A stretch of 64,000 bases of DNA, taken from NCBI GenBank assembly GCA_041649955.1, contig JBAZMD010000001.1, forward strand, positions 68,079-132,078, given 5' to 3'. The position numbers were made by a program, and so were the translations under genes. Shown piece after piece: positions 3,100 through 61,130 of this stretch. The DNA comes from Patescibacteria group bacterium. GTDB lineage: Bacteria; Patescibacteriota; Patescibacteriia; UBA2591; JAQUPP01. A model generated the notes under the pieces. That model did not search any database, was not told where the DNA came from, and worked only from the letters and a program-made list of their open reading frames with translations. Numbering within the stretch: position 1 is the stretch's first letter; each line of letters begins with the position of its first letter.

Positions 3100-3270
3100 T
3101 AGCGAAATTAGCTCGAACGAAGTCGCGGAAAAGCCTTAGAAAATTAAGGAGTTTTATTGAAAAATTCATCTGTTTGACGACCTCTTCGGGAGGAGTTATG
3201 AATTTTTCAAAATAAAACGAGTATAATTTTCAAGGTTTTGGAGCGCTGGAGTGAAAGCGAAATTCGCGGC
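3100..3270 (+). repeat. intergenic repeat family B, copy 1 (~170 bp)
   Basis: ~90% identical to 38612-38782; contains CCTCttcgGGAGG hairpin and SD-like gggaggag + ATG mini-ORF (MNFSK*). Confidence 0.6.
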
Positions 3271-19034: not shown

Positions 19035-19256
19035 ACTTTATATTATAATATATAATAATTAAAAAGCAAGCCCCACCACATGGAAATTATTGTTTTTCTG
19101 TAAAATTACGATTTAATAAGTATAAATTAAAAAAAATATTTTAGTTAGATATTTGAAATTATTAAGCATATAAAAAAACAAGAGAACAGTAATTTTAATA
19201 ATTTCCTTGTGGTGGGGCAAGCCTATTCTAACACATATTTTTATAGACGGGAAGAA

Positions 19257-28539: not shown

Positions 28540-28574
28540 AATAATAGCATATTTTTTGATTTTTGTCAACCCCT
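28540..28574 (-). promoter_or_regulatory. stereotyped promoter GGGGTTGACAAAAATCAAAAAATATGCTATTAT
   Basis: perfect -35, 17-nt A-rich spacer, TGn-extended -10. Confidence 0.6.
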
Positions 28575-30125: not shown

Positions 30126-30668
30126 CTAATTTTTAAGCGAAAATCTCCATTTTTTGTTTGCCCAATAAGGTCCGGCATAATCAATCCCAACTCTCTTAGT
30201 CGCAAAAATGCGGGATTTATTTATTTTTTCTCCTCTGTCTTCCAACCAAAATCTTTTGCTTTCAATAACATCTTCGCCGTAAAATGATTTGTCCAATTTT
30301 AAATATCTACAAAGTTTTCCCGGCCCGGAAGTTAAATTTTTTTCTTTAGAAGCTAGAGCGCGAATTAAAACGCATTCCGGCTTGCCTGATTTAGAAGTAG
30401 TGATATTCAATTGCCAATACATGCCATAAACCAAATAAATATAAATATGCCCGCCCTTGAAATATTCAGCAATATTTCGAGAAGTCATTCGATTGTTATA
30501 AGCATGGCAAGCTCTGTCTTTTGGGCCGACATAAGCTTCTGTTTCAATAATTTTTCCTTCTAATTTTTTATTGCCGATTTTTCTGACAATATATTTCCCC
30601 AATAATTCCTTGGCTACTTTTAAAGTCGGCCGAGTATAAAAATTTCTGGTTAATTTTTTTATTTTCAT
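30126..30668 (-). CDS. mpg: DNA-3-methyladenine glycosylase (Mpg/AAG family)
   Basis: 180 aa; ETEAYVGPKDRACHAY and GHIYIYLVYGMYW are Mpg signatures. Confidence 0.8.
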   Translation of the reverse strand: MKIKKLTRNFYTRPTLKVAKELLGKYIVRKIGNKKLEGKIIETEAYVGPKDRACHAYNNRMTSRNIAEYFKGGHIYIYLVYGMYWQLNITTSKSGKPECVLIRALASKEKNLTSGPGKLCRYLKLDKSFYGEDVIESKRFWLEDRGEKINKSRIFATKRVGIDYAGPYWANKKWRFSLKN

Positions 30669-30823
30669 CCCTCACCCTTCGACGATAATATTCGCCCTCG
30701 TATTTTCCAATTGCCTTTTATAAAATAAAAATAAATTTTCTTGAATCCAGATTAAACTGAATAAATTAGTAAAGACAGGCTCGTATTTGGAAAATAACAT
30801 CGTCGAAGGGTGAGGGATAAACT

Positions 30824-38611: not shown

Positions 38612-38782
38612 TGGCGAAATTCGCCTGAACGATGTCGCGGAAAAACCTTAGAAAATTAAGGAGTTTTATTGAAAAACTCATCTGTTTGACGACCTATTTG
38701 GGAGGAGTTATGAATTTTTCAGAATAAAACGAATATAATTTTCAAGGATTTAGAGCGTTGAGTGAAGGTGAATTTTGCAACA
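38612..38782 (+). repeat. intergenic repeat family B, copy 2
   Basis: ~90% identity to 3100-3270. Confidence 0.6.
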
Positions 38783-53001: not shown

Positions 53002-53238
53002 TTATTTAATTAATTCTGTTAATTTATCAAGTTTTTTATGAAACACGGAAACAATCTTGCCGAATTGATTGCTCGGAATAAGAATTATTGTTTCTGCCGG
53101 AGTCAAAAAAGCCACCAGCTTATCGCCGCTTTTTATTTTCAATTTTTTGCGGATTTCGGCCGGAACTACAATCTGTCCCCGTTCGCCGACTGTGGCGGTA
53201 TCAAAACAAATTATGCTTTCAAAAAAATCTTTTTTCAT
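53002..53238 (-). CDS. AbrB/MazE/SpoVT-family DNA-binding protein
   Basis: 78 aa; swapped-hairpin motif GQIVVPAEIRKKLKIKSGDKLV. Confidence 0.75.
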   Translation of the reverse strand: MKKDFFESIICFDTATVGERGQIVVPAEIRKKLKIKSGDKLVAFLTPAETIILIPSNQFGKIVSVFHKKLDKLTELIK

Positions 53239-53329
53239 AAATTTTTATATTAAATAATATGATTTATATGATACTTCATACAAATCATATTATAGCTAAT
53301 CTAAAATCTTCGTCAACCCCCACACCAAA

Positions 53330-53730
53330 CTTAGCGCTTGATTTACATATTATAAAAGTCGTAAGACGGAAGCCGCTTCGCTCTTATCTCTTCATATTAA
53401 AAAAGCCTTACGTTGAGTTGTGGTGTGGGGGTCAACCCCTCTGTGGACAAATTACAAATAACTCTAACAAAATAAATAGGGGTGAGAGAACTTGTCTCAC
53501 ACCCCCCTGGAGGATAACAGTGTATAAAGCTGTTATATCGATATTAGTGTTTTAAGGCGGTATTCCCCTATAATGGGACATGAGGACCTCCTATTTTTAG
53601 CAATTTAGGTAGCGCTCAAATTTGATCCCTTTCAGGATCTGGCTAGCGCTAAGCCATTGCTTTCATAAAAACCACCTCCTTTATATTATGATATAAACGA
53701 GTATATCACATTTTAAAATTTTGTCAACTC
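53330..53730 (-). ncRNA. candidate non-coding/leader transcription unit (promoter, two SD-preceded tiny ORFs MKAMA* and MSHYRGIPP*, multiple hairpins)
   Basis: minus strand: TTGACA-16-TATACT promoter at ~53712-53684, then AAGGAGGTG-8nt-ATG and ATAGGAGG-6nt-ATG; no ORF >10 aa on this strand. Confidence 0.3.
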
Positions 53731-53733
53731 TTT

Positions 53734-54135
53734 TTATTTAATTTTATCCACATTTCCATTGAGAATAATCGGTTTCATCGCTTCTATTTCATCCGTATAA
53801 TTCATTTTGGGAATCTGGTTTAATAAAAATATCTTTTTATTCAAGATATGCGCAAAAGCCATTTCTATCAAACTATTGCCGCCGATATAATTTTTAATAC
53901 CTTGCTTGTCTTTATTAATAACCAGTATCGCGTCGCACTTTTTTATTTCTTCAAAATATTCTTTAAAAACATCACCTTCAATTTTTGACCATTTATCTTC
54001 ATGATTAACTTCACCCTCGGCGTATTTTAAAATATCCTTTGGTGCAATCGCAATTAATCCTTTTGCTTCAAGGATTTTTTGAGTTTCCAATATTTCTTTT
54101 GAAAAGGCAATACTGCCGCAAATCGCAATTTTCAT
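53734..54135 (-). CDS. nucleoside 2-deoxyribosyltransferase-like (Rossmann-like) protein
   Basis: Start reassigned to MKIAICGSIAF (the ORF-track N-terminus translates a palindromic promoter region); ILVINKD...GGNSLIEMAFAH pattern. Confidence 0.45.
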   Translation of the reverse strand: MKIAICGSIAFSKEILETQKILEAKGLIAIAPKDILKYAEGEVNHEDKWSKIEGDVFKEYFEEIKKCDAILVINKDKQGIKNYIGGNSLIEMAFAHILNKKIFLLNQIPKMNYTDEIEAMKPIILNGNVDKIK

Positions 54136-54166
54136 ATTTTTAGTATAATATTTTTTAAAATTATGT

Positions 54167-54227
54167 CCACCCCACCACCAAGAAATTATACTTCGCGTTA
54201 AAAAAATATAATTTCTAGGTGGCGGGG
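54167..54227 (-). promoter_or_regulatory. palindromic operator-like site (ccaccccaccaccaagaaattata / tataatttctaggtggcgggg) overlapping promoter of 53734-54135
   Basis: ~21-bp inverted arms separated by 16 nt; -35 TTGACC and -10-like boxes within. Confidence 0.4.
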
Positions 54228-54281
54228 TCAATAAAAAAAATTGGGTGCAGACTAGTCAAACTAGTTCTGCACCCTGATATG

Positions 54282-54695
54282 TTATATACTCGCTATTTGG
54301 ATATTTAGCTCTTCCTGTTGTCTTCTTAGTGTGTCTCTAGCTTGAAAAACTAGAGAATTCTTATCTTCAATTCTAACCTTATTCAAAGATAAAGTTGAAG
54401 AGTTCTCAACAGAATTGACCGGTTTTACTATATTCACCTTTAGAATATTGAATTCGATTTTTCCAATCTCTTTTTTTACCGGTTTTACTAAAACCTGCGA
54501 AACTAATTCAACGGGCTGAGCAACGGTAGATAAATCATTATTACTTATCTCTATACTCATCGGCAATACTTCTGGCATTGTTGTTACCTTGCTTACAACC
54601 GGTGTAAATTTGTTTTCCAAATTTGTAGTAGAAGCATAAGCTCCTATGGCAGTAAACACAACAACAACTAACAGAATTTTTTGAAATTTATTCAT
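54282..54695 (-). CDS. secreted hypothetical protein
   Basis: 137 aa with N-terminal signal peptide; stereotyped promoter upstream at 54786-54818. Confidence 0.45.
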   Translation of the reverse strand: MNKFQKILLVVVVFTAIGAYASTTNLENKFTPVVSKVTTMPEVLPMSIEISNNDLSTVAQPVELVSQVLVKPVKKEIGKIEFNILKVNIVKPVNSVENSSTLSLNKVRIEDKNSLVFQARDTLRRQQEELNIQIASI

Positions 54696-55029
54696 TTAAG
54701 ACCTCCCGTCTTATTAGTTTTGCGAATCCTTTCTTTTTAGCCCGGATTCGCTTCGGCTATTTACAAAGAACTATTGTGTTATATATAATAGCATATTTTT
54801 GAATTTTGTCAACCCCCTCACATGTGGAAAACCATAAAGGGCATACTGTCTTTCGTTTTTTTATATATACACTGATTTTATCTTATCTATATGCTTATTT
54901 TTAACTTTATGCCTATTAAACTGTAATTTCCAAGAAAGACAATGGTTTTCCTTGTGAGGGGGCCAAGAGCAAATTTGGGGATAAATAAAAGGGGCGATTT
55001 CTCGCCCCCCGTTTAAATACTTACTATTC

Positions 55030-59156: not shown

Positions 59157-60914
59157 TCATTTAAGATTATCGTTTATCGCTTTATAAGCCTTTTGAATAT
59201 TCCAGCCATCTCTATTACAGAGATGGTAAACAAAATTGTGGAGTTCTTTAAGATCGTATTCATCGTAGATAGAAATAAGCTTTCGAGTAAGAACAAAAAG
59301 ATGTTCTGCTATCAAATCATTGTCTGTCCTTTTTGTATCCACGTGAAGTTTCCCGCTTTCTGTGACCGTGATAATACTTGCGGCCATCAGCTTATTCAAA
59401 ATTCCCATGCATTCGTTGACGTATGGAGCCACGGTTGGATTATTAAAATTACTCTGTTCCAACATTCTGATTAAGTGAGAAATAATCATGGCAGCAAGAC
59501 TTGAGAAAGCTTCTTTTCTAATTTCATCACTGAGCGAACCATTTTCAATTGCCTGACGAACCCCTTCAATATCAAGCAGTGTTGCTTTCATTTCCTCAAC
59601 CTTTGACTTATTATCGCCAAAGACCTCAATTAAACGTTCATTAATACAGAAACAATGTCCAAATTCGTGGCCAAAGACGTCCAAGTAAGCGAATTCTTCT
59701 TTCAAAAATTTCATGGCCCAAGTTGAACTTTCCGGGTCAAGCACTTTTTGAATAAGACTCTGAAATCCGTGAAAACGCTGTTTCATGGATTCTTGATCTA
59801 AAAAAACTTTCATTCCCAGTGCTTGCGCTTCCGGATAATTTGGCACTGACTGACCGGCTAAACGAAAATCAATATTGGAACCGCTAGCCAAAATAGTCAG
59901 AAAAACTCCCACATCAGTTCTCTTAATCTTTTCAACGGCCCTTGGGTCAAATTTCTTTGCGAGATCGCTCATTTCTTTGCGCATAAGACCCAATTCTTTC
60001 GCATGACAACCTGTTCGCCATAATAAACGGTATTCCGGCGCTACGCGAATTGGAACCTCATAATCACTTTCCATCATATGAACAGGAATAAGACGACGGT
60101 CAGAACTGATTTCTATCCATTTTTTATCAACTTCTATCCAAAGAGTTTCCATTTGTTCCAAATCCTTATTAATCAAAGCAGTGCGAAGTGCTAAAAAATA
60201 TTCCCGATAATCAGTATCATCCGGCAAATTCTTTGCCAGTTGTTTTAGAATCTTGGCAATTCCATTAATTTCAATCGGAAACATCTCGACAAGCGGAATT
60301 TGTTTTGCCTTTTCAATTTGCTTTGCAGTAAGCGGTTTGGTATAAGGATTATTTGGACCCCTGGCAAGTACTGAATACTTATCGGTTTTCCCAAATTTTT
60401 GAATCAATTCCTTAAGTTCATCCGCACTCAACTTGCTTGTCCGAAACGGAATGACAACCCATTTCCACCACTTGCTGAAAAGATCATCAAAAAGCGTGCC
60501 TATTTTGTATCCGGCCTCGGCAATAAAATTTTCTTCATCAAACGCCAAAATATTAGGGCATGCCATACAGACATCTTTTAGGGCTGCGTGAATCGCATCC
60601 TGACATGGACGGACGACCAGCGAATAAAAAAATGACAACTTAACGGCGTCATCTTTTGGCAGTTGAGCACCTGCCGTATTGGTTCTTCTGGCCGCGTATT
60701 CCACTGCCAAATCAACCGGCACATTGAAATCAATTGCAATTATAATTTTTGCAATTTGATTTCTGATTTTCTTATCATTTATAAGAAAATAGTCAACACT
60801 GTCCATCATTTCCTTGAGTACCTCTGTGGGTTCTGACAAAATAAATTCTTTCGGCCTTTCTTTCAAAATCTCAATTAACTCCGCAGAGTATTCCTTTGCT
60901 TTTTTCAAATCCAT
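59157..60914 (-). CDS. large hypothetical protein with HExxH (HEFGH) zincin-like motif
   Basis: 585 aa soluble protein; DVFGHEFGHCF. Confidence 0.45.
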   Translation of the reverse strand: MDLKKAKEYSAELIEILKERPKEFILSEPTEVLKEMMDSVDYFLINDKKIRNQIAKIIIAIDFNVPVDLAVEYAARRTNTAGAQLPKDDAVKLSFFYSLVVRPCQDAIHAALKDVCMACPNILAFDEENFIAEAGYKIGTLFDDLFSKWWKWVVIPFRTSKLSADELKELIQKFGKTDKYSVLARGPNNPYTKPLTAKQIEKAKQIPLVEMFPIEINGIAKILKQLAKNLPDDTDYREYFLALRTALINKDLEQMETLWIEVDKKWIEISSDRRLIPVHMMESDYEVPIRVAPEYRLLWRTGCHAKELGLMRKEMSDLAKKFDPRAVEKIKRTDVGVFLTILASGSNIDFRLAGQSVPNYPEAQALGMKVFLDQESMKQRFHGFQSLIQKVLDPESSTWAMKFLKEEFAYLDVFGHEFGHCFCINERLIEVFGDNKSKVEEMKATLLDIEGVRQAIENGSLSDEIRKEAFSSLAAMIISHLIRMLEQSNFNNPTVAPYVNECMGILNKLMAASIITVTESGKLHVDTKRTDNDLIAEHLFVLTRKLISIYDEYDLKELHNFVYHLCNRDGWNIQKAYKAINDNLK

Positions 60915-61130
60915 CTCCCACCTCCTTGTGGTTAAATTTAATTTTTTTCAATGAACAACTATTCCTCCTTTAATTTAATTATTTATATATTAATTTATTT
61001 TTTGGAAAATGTCAATATCAAAAAAAGACATTATTACTGCAGGTATTATTGATTGCACGAAAACCATTTGAATAAATTTTGAATAATAATACCGGGTTAA
61101 TCGCTTAACCCGGTAAATACTTATTTTTTA

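What the first reader, a model, noticed from the sequence alone, without database searches (positions are those of the whole stretch)
53239..53733. Promoter-driven ~400-nt untranslated locus with two SD-preceded tiny ORFs and stacked hairpins upstream of the AbrB-like regulator
Reading the minus strand from 53720 there is a near-perfect promoter (TTGACA-16-TATACT). Next comes AAGGAGGTG-8nt-ATG AAA GCA ATG GCT TAG (MKAMA*). Then ATAGGAGG-6nt-ATG TCC CAT TAT AGG GGA ATA CCG CCT TAA (MSHYRGIPP*). Four or more hairpins follow (ataacag...ctgttat; ggggtgtgagac...ctctcacccc; the cccccacacc/ggtgtggggg long-range pair). Only then does the abrB-like gene's own TTGACG-16-TATAAT promoter appear. Two strong SDs in front of 5- and 9-codon ORFs point to a leader-peptide or attenuation device, or to a small regulatory RNA (for example a type I TA or antitoxin RNA). 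The only long ORF here (53259-53555, plus strand) looks random.
Basis: seen in the sequence. Interest (0 to 1): 0.6.

Follow-up and report, generated by a model that had tools for sequence, protein, structure and literature searches.

The report
Mosaic spacer hiding a Pro-Pro-stop micro-gene
The 495-base spacer is not one long leader RNA but a patchwork: a small, strain-variable unit (promoter, 9-codon reading frame ending Pro-Pro-stop, terminator) broken up by two inserted repeats and sitting in front of the efflux operon's own promoter. It is a modest lead for translation-sensing control in a little-studied bacterial group, not a new class of RNA.

Summary
Ten related Patescibacteria strains show the "~400-nt locus" is three separate things.

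1. **Core unit.** Promoter P1, a strong ribosome-binding site (SD), an 8-9-codon ORF ending G-[I/L/T]-P-P-stop (here MSHYRGIPP*), and an intrinsic terminator.
   - It is kept in six sequence variants that are otherwise about 40% diverged.
   - Changes in the ORF are synonymous, and length changes are whole codons.
   - The terminator stems co-vary.
2. **81-nt insert.** MKAMA* is not conserved.
3. **115-nt palindromic insertion.** This is the "long-range pair". It is MITE-like, has a TTGA target duplication, and is present or absent between strains with clean empty sites. It sits at the -35 box of the abrB operon's own conserved promoter P2.

No antiterminator is predicted, P2 lies between the terminator and abrB, and one strain carries the unit upstream of a different gene. 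A classic abrB attenuator is therefore not supported.

Most likely this is a portable micro-ORF/terminator module in which slow termination at Pro-Pro-stop affects the fate of the transcript. There are no hits in Rfam, phage or plasmid collections. Interest is moderate.

The parts
53700..53727 (-). Promoter P1: TTGACA-16-(TG)TATACT. Transcription probably starts near 53693.
   Evidence: 11 of 12 matches, TG before the -10. The -35 and spacer TTGACAAAATTTTAAAA are identical in type A and type B units. It resembles the promoter cassette repeated at 28573, 54816 and 57067.
53673..53682 (-). SD1, AAAGGAGGTG. This is the ancestral Shine-Dalgarno of the micro-ORF, now cut off from it by the 81-nt insert. 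The first copy of the 7-nt direct repeat AGGAGGT is 53680-53674.
   Evidence: In type B strains TAAAGGAGGT directly precedes the micro-ORF.
53593..53673 (-). 81-nt insert ('H2'). It is flanked by the duplicated AGGAGGT.
   Evidence: Absent from type B units. A copy 85% identical lies at the same place in the L181 unit. That copy gives no compensatory changes and breaks three predicted pairs. The ORF1 peptide is not conserved.
53586..53592 (-). SD2. This is the second copy of the AGGAGGT repeat and now serves the micro-ORF.
53552..53581 (-). Conserved micro-ORF: ATG TCC CAT TAT AGG GGA ATA CCG CCT TAA = MSHYRGIPP*.
   Evidence: Variants seen: MFHYKGIPP* (L002), MLLKGIPP* (L177, L186), MLQKGIPP* (L184), MSHTGLPP* and MSRNKGTPP* (L181). 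Differences include synonymous changes (GGA/GGC, CCG/CCA, ATA/ATT, CAT/CAC, TCC/TCT), TAA/TGA, and whole-codon length changes.
53509..53536 (-). Hairpin ATAACAG/CTGTTAT plus CCTCC (53513-53509), which is predicted to pair with SD1. Found only in type A units.
   Evidence: Not present in type B units.
53466..53507 (-). Intrinsic terminator of the P1 unit: GGGGGGTGTGAGA-caagt-TCTCTCACCCC followed by TATTTATTTTGTT.
   Evidence: The stem differs between types A, B1/B2 and B3 with pair-preserving changes (G-C to U-A, U-A to C-G, U-A to U-G). It persists when a ribosome footprint at the stop codon is forced unpaired.
53317..53431 (.). 115-nt MITE-like palindromic insertion (CCCCCACACC...GGTGTGGGGG). 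TTGA is duplicated at 53435-53432 and 53316-53313. It sits on the -35 box of P2.
   Evidence: Absent from L002, with empty site GAGGGGTTGACG. Absent from L184/L185/L190, with empty site GGAATTGACAAGG. Present at 97% identity in L177 and L186/188/189. Elements of similar architecture abut other promoters.
53289..53316 (-). Promoter P2 of the abrB-HlyD-ABC-MacB operon: TTGACG-16-TATAAT.
   Evidence: A promoter at this position is conserved in every orthologous operon examined, including distant lineages.
53254..53293 (-). 18-nt imperfect palindrome in the abrB 5'UTR (ATAATATGATTTGTATGA / TCATATAAATCATATTAT). Probably an operator or a 5'UTR hairpin.
   Evidence: I2, 94% complementary. The right half TCATAYAAATCATA is conserved in operons whose AbrB is only 52-67% identical.
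53002..53238 (-). AbrB/MazE/SpoVT-family gene (78 aa). It is the first gene of the efflux operon and has no SD.
   Evidence: PF04014; NCBI name.

Best explanation
**Anatomy (high confidence, about 0.85).** The spacer is a mosaic of four pieces.

1. A self-contained micro-gene cassette that varies between strains. It has a consensus promoter (P1), a strong SD, an 8-9-codon ORF ending G-[I/L/T]-Pro-Pro-stop, and an intrinsic terminator 15-45 nt further on.
2. In this strain only, an 81-nt insert between duplicated AGGAGGT copies. It splits the original SD from the ORF and creates the decoy SD1/MKAMA* ORF.
3. A 115-nt MITE-like palindrome inserted with a TTGA duplication at the -35 box of the next promoter.
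4. The efflux operon's own conserved promoter P2 and its 5'UTR palindrome.

**Mechanism (inferred, about 0.4).** The micro-ORF is translated efficiently. Its Pro-Pro-stop ending is a context shown in E. coli to slow peptide release and hold the ribosome at the stop codon. The time a ribosome spends at the end of the micro-ORF would then set the fate of the short transcript. It would keep the predicted SD/anti-SD hairpin open, and it would change terminator efficiency and/or RNA stability. That in turn would set how much P1 transcription reads into the promoter-gene unit immediately downstream (here abrB-HlyD-ABC-MacB), on top of basal, probably autoregulated, transcription from P2.

On this reading the module is a portable translation-status sensor paired with a terminator. 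It is not a dedicated abrB attenuator.
For: **Mosaic structure**
- The 119-nt indel has clean empty sites in two unit types.
- The 81-nt indel is flanked by a 7-nt repeat.
- Once both inserts are removed, type A and type B units align end to end.

**Constraint on the core unit**
- Types A and B differ at 38-45% of aligned positions, yet they keep the -35 and spacer, TAAAGGAGGT, ATG, GGA-AT[A/T]-CCG-CCT-T[A/G]A and a terminator.
- Six ORF variants in three genomic contexts all stay open, all end PP-stop, and differ by synonymous changes and whole-codon indels.
- Terminator stems show compensatory changes.
- Between window and L002 the unit differs at 2.5% of positions, against 18-27% at fourfold sites of flanking genes.
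- Both strain differences that fall in predicted pairs keep the pair through G-U, which works only on the minus strand.

**Association with a terminator rather than a promoter**
- The L181 copy after the Band_7 gene has no promoter of its own but keeps SD, ORF and terminator.

**Translation signals**
- The SD has the same form (AAGGAGGTG) as real SD-led genes of this genome, while most genes here have no SD.

**Literature**
- A C-terminal Pro-Pro motif interferes with termination and arrests ribosomes in all contexts tested in E. coli (PMC3834316).
- Very short ORFs coupled to terminators control expression in mccA (PMC4231749), msrD (PMC10314930) and bmrCD (PMC4191407).
Against: - No antiterminator is predicted. 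The terminator hairpin is unchanged when 30 nt around the stop codon are forced single-stranded.
- The stop-to-terminator distance is not conserved (15-45 nt), which argues against a precise steric mechanism.
- A conserved, strong promoter (P2) lies between the terminator and abrB, so the operon does not need P1.
- The unit is missing upstream of abrB in L181-183.
- The unit's divergence does not track its flanks. L177 and L186 differ at 6.9% in the unit but 2% at fourfold sites. The low window-L002 divergence could therefore reflect recent recombination rather than selection.
- The conserved CCGCCTT could be an RNA-level anti-SD rather than Pro codons.
- Everything comes from one species cluster. 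There are no expression data.
Confidence: 0.42

Rival explanations
1. The cassette is a true micro-gene and its product matters: an 8-9-residue peptide (x2-4-[K/R]-G-[I/L/T]-P-P). It could be a signal or a substrate exported by the adjacent HlyD/ABC/MacB-type pump. The terminator would ensure a large excess of the short transcript, as for the microcin C precursor gene mccA.
For: - It has its own strong promoter, a strong SD and its own terminator.
- The C-terminal residues are conserved at the amino-acid level with synonymous codon changes.
- Basic residue codons vary (AGG/AAG/AAA) while the residue type is kept in 5 of 6 variants.
- In most strains it lies next to an exporter operon.
- mccA is a precedent for a 7-codon gene followed by an intrinsic terminator (PMC4231749).
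Against: - No modification enzyme or receptor gene is nearby (Pfam lists).
- Strains L181-183 keep the exporter with no unit next to it, and carry units next to unrelated genes.
- The peptide is very short and varies in its N-terminal half.
- No comparable peptide family is known to me.
Confidence: 0.18
2. The P1-to-terminator transcript (about 230 nt here, about 130 nt in type B) is a trans-acting small RNA. The micro-ORF is incidental or only stabilises the RNA. Its C-rich stretches (CCGCC, CCUCC) would pair with the SD sequences of the minority of SD-led genes.
For: - It is a discrete promoter-to-terminator unit.
- Folding z-score is -3.0.
- The strain differences are compatible with the structure and consistent with the minus strand.
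- The C-rich motifs are complementary to GGAGG.
- SD-led genes form a distinct subset of this genome.
Against: - Apart from the ORF end and the terminator, sequence and structure between types A and B are not conserved. CCUCC is absent from type B.
- The whole-codon indels and synonymous changes point to a coding constraint.
- No Rfam family matches.
- No covariation was found outside the terminator.
Confidence: 0.15
3. The unit has no function of its own. It is debris left by frequent cassette shuffling at repeated promoter sequences: a promoter, the SD and first codons of a lost gene, and a terminator. It persists by hitch-hiking.
For: - The neighbourhood is a shuffling zone. Gene cassettes bounded by GGGGTTGAC promoters and palindromic repeats come and go between strains.
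- The unit is absent in some strains.
- Two insertions have landed in or next to it.
- P1 is one copy of a repeated promoter cassette.
Against: - Six variants in three contexts keep SD, ATG, an open 8-9-codon frame, PP-stop and a terminator despite about 40% divergence elsewhere.
- After the 81-nt insertion the ORF still has an SD.
- No frame of the spacer resembles a longer protein.
Confidence: 0.15

Closest known systems
Ribosome-mediated transcription attenuators of resistance and efflux genes (bmrB-bmrCD of B. subtilis, PMC4191407; msrDL-msrD, PMC10314930; erm, cat and vmlR leaders)
   Same: - A very short, SD-led ORF lies upstream of an intrinsic terminator and in front of a transporter operon.
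- MsrDL is 6 residues long and stalls at its stop codon.
   Different: - No antiterminator alternative is predicted.
- A conserved promoter lies between the terminator and the operon.
- The unit is not always linked to this operon.
- No antibiotic-type stalling motif is evident.
C-terminal Pro-Pro-stop termination stalling (YbeL-PP model; Hayes, Bose and Sauer 2002, as cited in PMC3834316) and TnaC (Pro-UGA)
   Same: - Two prolines lie immediately before the stop codon in all six variants.
- Type B uses UGA, as TnaC does.
   Different: - Those are properties of E. coli ribosomes acting on longer nascent chains.
- Stalling of an 8-9-residue peptide on Patescibacteria ribosomes is untested.
- TnaC acts through Rho, not through an intrinsic terminator.
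RAPP/RGPP arrest peptides (ApdA, ApdP, ApcA; PMC10951233, PMC12992588)
   Same: A basic residue, then a small residue, then Pro-Pro near the C-terminus of a small upstream ORF.
   Different: - The motif here is [K/R]-G-[I/L/T]-P-P, with one extra residue. One variant has Thr in place of the basic residue.
- Those peptides are tens of residues long with export signals, and they stall during elongation rather than at a stop codon.
mccA, the 7-codon microcin C precursor gene with a ribosome-controlled terminator (PMC4231749)
   Same: A tiny SD-led ORF is followed at once by an intrinsic terminator, upstream of an operon that includes an exporter. The upstream sequence, including the SD region, interacts with terminator function.
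   Different: - There is no MccB-type enzyme.
- The peptide does not end in Asn.
- The downstream operon has its own promoter.
Miniature inverted-repeat transposable elements (MITEs) and REP-like palindromic repeats
   Same: The 115-nt element has perfect 11-12-nt terminal inverted repeats, a 4-nt duplication, no coding capacity, and presence/absence polymorphism with exact empty sites.
   Different: - This exact element was seen at one site only.
- No partner transposase is known.
- Related palindromes share only the C-rich ends and the position against a -35 box.

Membership tests
Leader-peptide transcription attenuator (trp/erm/bmrB type) | Short translated ORF with its own ribosome-binding site in the leader | tested here: met
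   SD plus an 8-9-codon ORF is conserved in six variants. Translation itself was not tested.
Leader-peptide transcription attenuator (trp/erm/bmrB type) | Intrinsic terminator between the leader ORF and the regulated gene | tested here: met
   A G+C-rich hairpin plus T-run is present in all variants, with covarying stems.
Leader-peptide transcription attenuator (trp/erm/bmrB type) | Mutually exclusive antiterminator structure whose formation depends on ribosome position | tested here: not met
   The terminator is unchanged in minimum-energy folds with the stop-codon region forced unpaired, in all five variants.
Leader-peptide transcription attenuator (trp/erm/bmrB type) | Leader and regulated gene form one transcription unit and stay linked in evolution | tested here: not met
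   The conserved promoter P2 lies between them. The unit is absent at abrB in L181-183 and present upstream of Band_7 there.
RAPP-like arrest peptides | R-[A/G]-P-P core with an essential Arg directly before the small residue | tested here: not met
   The cores here are RGIPP, KGIPP, TGLPP and KGTPP, compared with the motif definition in PMC12992588.
RAPP-like arrest peptides | Small protein of tens of residues, usually with an export or membrane signal | tested here: not met
   The peptides here are 8-9 residues long.
Pro-Pro-stop termination pausing | Two consecutive Pro codons immediately before the stop codon | tested here: met
   CCG/CCA CCT followed by TAA/TGA in all variants.
Pro-Pro-stop termination pausing | Demonstrated ribosome arrest at the stop codon | not testable with these tools
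   This needs toeprinting or ribosome profiling.
mccA-type peptide precursor micro-gene | MccB-type (ThiF/E1-like) adenylating enzyme encoded downstream, and a peptide ending in Asn | tested here: not met
   The downstream genes are AbrB, a HlyD-like adaptor, an ABC ATPase and a MacB/FtsX permease (Pfam lists). The peptide ends Pro-Pro.
MITE (the 115-nt element) | Terminal inverted repeats, target-site duplication, no ORF | tested here: met
   12-nt perfect arms. TTGA is duplicated relative to empty sites in L002 and L184.
MITE (the 115-nt element) | Multiple dispersed copies in the genome | tested here: inconclusive
   There is no second copy in the 64-kb window or in 190 loci. Palindromes with similar ends occur at 19070-19218, 54813-54962 and 54169-54232. 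The whole genome could not be searched.
Any Rfam RNA family (riboswitch, sRNA, tmRNA, 6S, T-box and others) | Covariance-model match | tested here: not met
   Nothing in the spacer at E<=10 apart from one meaningless miRNA hit. The only gathering-level hit in the window is a tRNA. ARAGORN found no tmRNA. The L181 paralogue gave only sub-threshold noise.
Type I toxin-antitoxin | Conserved small hydrophobic toxin ORF with an overlapping antisense RNA | tested here: not met
   The only candidate is a 22-codon GTG ORF at 53500-53432. It has no SD and overlaps the type-A-specific terminator sequence, which is not conserved in type B.

The most novel reading that the evidence does not exclude
Patescibacteria of this lineage carry a family of portable 'Pro-Pro-stop micro-ORF plus terminator' modules. 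These act as translation-status sensors (prolyl-tRNA or EF-P supply, release-factor activity, or ribosome-targeting compounds) and tune read-through into whatever gene lies downstream. They are shuffled between loci together with promoter cassettes and with MITE-like palindromes that target the -35 TTGAC sequence.
Probability: 0.2. Interest if true: 0.65.

Novelty: new variant of a known kind. Interest (0 to 1): 0.4.

Why it matters
Gene regulation in Patescibacteria (CPR bacteria) is almost unknown. If the micro-ORF/terminator module is functional, it would be a very compact translation-sensing device, with an 8-9-residue peptide and no antiterminator. It behaves as a movable cassette and sits next to an efflux operon. 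Finally, it documents palindromic elements that land exactly on promoter -35 boxes, which could rewire expression. The practical value is a concrete construct that can be tested by toeprinting and reporter assays.

Tried and rejected
- **Known RNA family.** Rfam at E<=10 on the spacer, Rfam at gathering threshold on the whole window, and ARAGORN found nothing. The L181 paralogue gave only noise.
- **Frameshifted gene in the spacer.** All six frames are full of stops. The called 95-aa plus-strand ORF is not conserved.
- **Homologues elsewhere.** Searches of phage and plasmid collections found no match. nhmmer with the unit and with the 81-nt insert against 190 fetched loci and the window found only the same species cluster.
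- **Other AbrB-led efflux operons.** Metagenome and GTDB scans gave operons that share only P2 and a 5'UTR motif. None has the unit.
- **Viral contig scans.** There were no hits for the unit pattern. There were seven hits for the inverted-repeat pair, but their interiors are unrelated, so they are chance or other repeats.
- **Purifying selection from the window-L002 pair alone.** I first read 2.5% against about 22% neutral divergence as strong constraint. I downgraded this when L177 and L186 showed the unit can diverge faster than its flanks, which implies recombination.
- **The 81-nt insert as an independently mobile or structurally conserved RNA.** The only other copy is inside a paralogous unit at the same relative position. 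It gives no covariation and breaks three predicted pairs.
- **Steric block of the terminator by a stalled ribosome.** The spacing varies from 15 to 45 nt and the hairpin is unaffected in constrained folds.

Full report
**Observation.**
- P1 is TTGACA-16-TATACT with a TG extended -10 (53727-53700). P2 is TTGACG-16-TATAAT (53316-53289). Each scores 11 of 12.
- The two SD-led mini-ORFs are at 53666-53649 (MKAMA*) and 53581-53552 (MSHYRGIPP*).
- The named hairpins and the 12-nt perfect long-range pair are real.
- The region folds better than shuffles: z about -6 for 462 nt on either strand, and -3.0 for the 235-nt P1 transcript.

**Context.** The window comes from a Patescibacteria MAG (source names).
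- Downstream lies an operon of an AbrB/MazE-family gene, a HlyD-like adaptor, an ABC ATPase and a MacB/FtsX permease.
- Upstream lies a widespread 133-aa gene, followed by a zone of small genes.
- Only 9 of 48 genes in the window have an SD, and almost all of those lie at 54-62 kb. Two perfect SDs within a 100-nt stretch of spacer are therefore notable.

**Known families.** Rfam at E<=10 on the spacer, Rfam at gathering threshold on the window, and ARAGORN all gave nothing. Phage and plasmid collections gave nothing. No frame of the spacer looks like a decayed protein.

**Comparative material.** Exact-protein look-ups and members of the 90% AbrB cluster gave ten further loci from the same species cluster: L002/L003, L177/L187, L181-L190. 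Their operon genes are about 90-93% identical, and fourfold-site divergence is 0.12-0.35. More distant AbrB-led efflux operons (L005-L010, L016, L027, L028, L097) share only P2 and a 5'UTR motif, GAAATGTAGGATAATTCATAYAAATCATAC.

**Dissection 1: the long-range pair is an insertion.**
- L002 lacks exactly 119 nt.
- The element CCCCCACACC...GGTGTGGGGG (53431-53317, 115 nt) is flanked by TTGA on both sides.
- It is 97% identical at the same site in L177 and L186/188/189. It is absent from L002, L184/185/190 and L181-183.
- There are two different clean empty sites, GAGGGGTTGACG and GGAATTGACAAGG.
- It sits on the -35 box of P2.
- Palindromes with the same C-rich/G-rich ends abut other -35 boxes at 19070-19218, 54813-54962 and 54169-54232.
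- In L002, two copies of one such palindrome bracket an extra 135-aa gene.
- GGGGTTGAC is itself a recurrent promoter motif in this genome.

**Dissection 2: the first SD and ORF1 come from a second insertion.**
- Type B strains have TAAAGGAGGT-(3 nt)-ATG directly.
- The window and L002 have 81 extra nt (53673-53593) between two copies of AGGAGGT.
- Removing this insert and the 115-nt element makes types A and B align end to end.
- The insert holds the GAAA-loop hairpin and ORF1.
- Its only other copy (85% identical) lies at the same relative place in a paralogous unit in L181. There ORF1 would read MKALAVSASQILKMD*, and three predicted pairs are broken with no compensation.

**The core unit.** What remains is promoter, SD, an 8-9-codon ORF and an intrinsic terminator.
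- Types A and B differ at 38-45% of aligned positions, more than neutral sites in the flanks.
- They still share the -35 and spacer, the SD block, ATG, GGA AT[A/T] CCG CCT T[A/G]A, and a terminator.
- The ORF variants are MSHYRGIPP*, MFHYKGIPP*, MLLKGIPP*, MLQKGIPP*, MSHTGLPP* and MSRNKGTPP*.
- Differences include synonymous changes (GGA/GGC, CCG/CCA, ATA/ATT, CAT/CAC, TCC/TCT), a stop-for-stop change, and length changes of whole codons only.
- Terminator stems differ with pair-preserving changes.
- This pattern favours a translated micro-ORF coupled to a terminator.
- CCGCCTT is also complementary to the SD, so an RNA-level anti-SD role cannot be separated from the Pro-Pro coding role.

**Is it a leader of abrB?** Four results argue against a dedicated attenuator.
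- The terminator survives constrained folding in every variant, so no antiterminator is seen.
- P2 is conserved between the terminator and abrB in all lineages.
- The stop-to-terminator spacing ranges from 15 to 45 nt.
- L181-183 have no unit at abrB. L181 does have a type-A-like unit between an unrelated gene and a Band_7 cassette, and also a promoter-less SD + ORF + terminator directly after Band_7.

The unit's divergence is also decoupled from its flanks: 2.5% between window and L002 against about 22% neutral, but 6.9% between L177 and L186 against 2% neutral. This indicates recombination. I therefore do not rely on the low window-L002 divergence as proof of selection.

**Mechanism.**
- *Shown:* the anatomy, the polymorphisms, the conservation pattern, and the absence of a predicted antiterminator.
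- *Established elsewhere:* a C-terminal Pro-Pro motif interferes with termination and arrests E. coli ribosomes in all contexts tested (PMC3834316). Very short ORFs next to terminators control transcript fate in mccA (PMC4231749), msrD and bmrCD.
- *Inferred:* ribosome dwell time at the Pro-Pro-stop of this micro-ORF modulates terminator efficiency and/or stability of the short RNA. That would change read-through into the downstream promoter-gene unit.
- *Rivals:* a functional micropeptide, a trans-acting small RNA, or inert debris from cassette shuffling.

**Comparison with known systems.**
- It works most like short-leader attenuators and Pro-stop stalling systems.
- It fails two defining tests for a classic attenuator: an antiterminator, and fixed linkage in a single transcription unit.
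- It does not carry the RAPP/RGPP core.
- It lacks the enzyme partner of mccA.
- The 115-nt element meets the structural criteria of a MITE. Whether it is multi-copy could not be tested.

**Verdict.** The finding is a lineage-restricted new variant of a known kind of element. Interest is moderate, and clear experiments are available.

Noticed in passing
window 3102-3267 and 38614-38778 (minus strand): Two intergenic copies of a ~166-nt sequence, 89% identical. There is no Rfam hit at gathering threshold. It could be a repeated small RNA or a mobile element. The second copy lies in a ~1-kb stretch with no long ORF.
   Followed up: no
window 60938-60958 (minus strand): A strong SD (AAAGGAGG) plus a 6-codon TTG-start ORF (MFIEKN*) sits between a TTGACA-17-TAATAT promoter and the SD of the 585-aa ABC exporter gene at 59157-60914. 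This is a second leader-like micro-ORF in front of a transporter.
   Followed up: no
window 19070-19218, 54813-54962, 54169-54232: Palindromic elements of 60-150 nt with a C-rich left end and a G-rich right end (CCCC.CAC...GTG.GGGG). Each ends exactly at the -35 box of a promoter and has TTG-like sequence on both flanks.
   Followed up: partly
L002 4400-5220 compared with window 54130-54290: The sister strain has an extra 135-aa gene bracketed by two copies of the 54169-54232-type palindrome. The window has a single short copy. This is cassette gain or loss by recombination between repeats.
   Followed up: partly
window 30667-30818: A perfect 20-nt inverted repeat (ATCCCTCACCCTTCGACGAT / ATCGTCGAAGGGTGAGGGAT) encloses 112 nt and ends at the ATG of the gene at 30126-30668.
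   Followed up: no
window 28573, 54816, 57067 (minus strand): Near-identical promoter cassettes, GGGGTTGACAAAAATCAAAAAATATGCTATTAT, in which even the spacer is conserved. P1 is a member of this set.
   Followed up: partly
window 1-64000: Shine-Dalgarno use is bimodal. Genes at 1-53 kb almost all lack an SD, while the small genes at 54-62 kb carry strong AAGGAGGTG-type SDs. This suggests an island with a different origin or a different mode of expression.
   Followed up: no
L181 530-760 and 1920-2010: The strain with no unit at abrB carries two units elsewhere. One is a type-A-like unit (MSHTGLPP*) upstream of a Band_7 gene. The other is a promoter-less SD + MSRNKGTPP* + terminator right after Band_7. 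The Band_7 leader itself has an SD plus a 3-codon ORF (MVL*) ahead of the real SD.
   Followed up: partly
window 53254-53293; L005 5955-6000; L016 205-236; L027 965-1009; L028 310-352: A 5'UTR motif with the core TTCATAYAAATCATA is conserved upstream of AbrB-led efflux operons across distant Patescibacteria. In close strains, A-to-G changes in the left arm give G-U pairs. This hints at an RNA hairpin as well as, or instead of, a DNA operator.
   Followed up: partly
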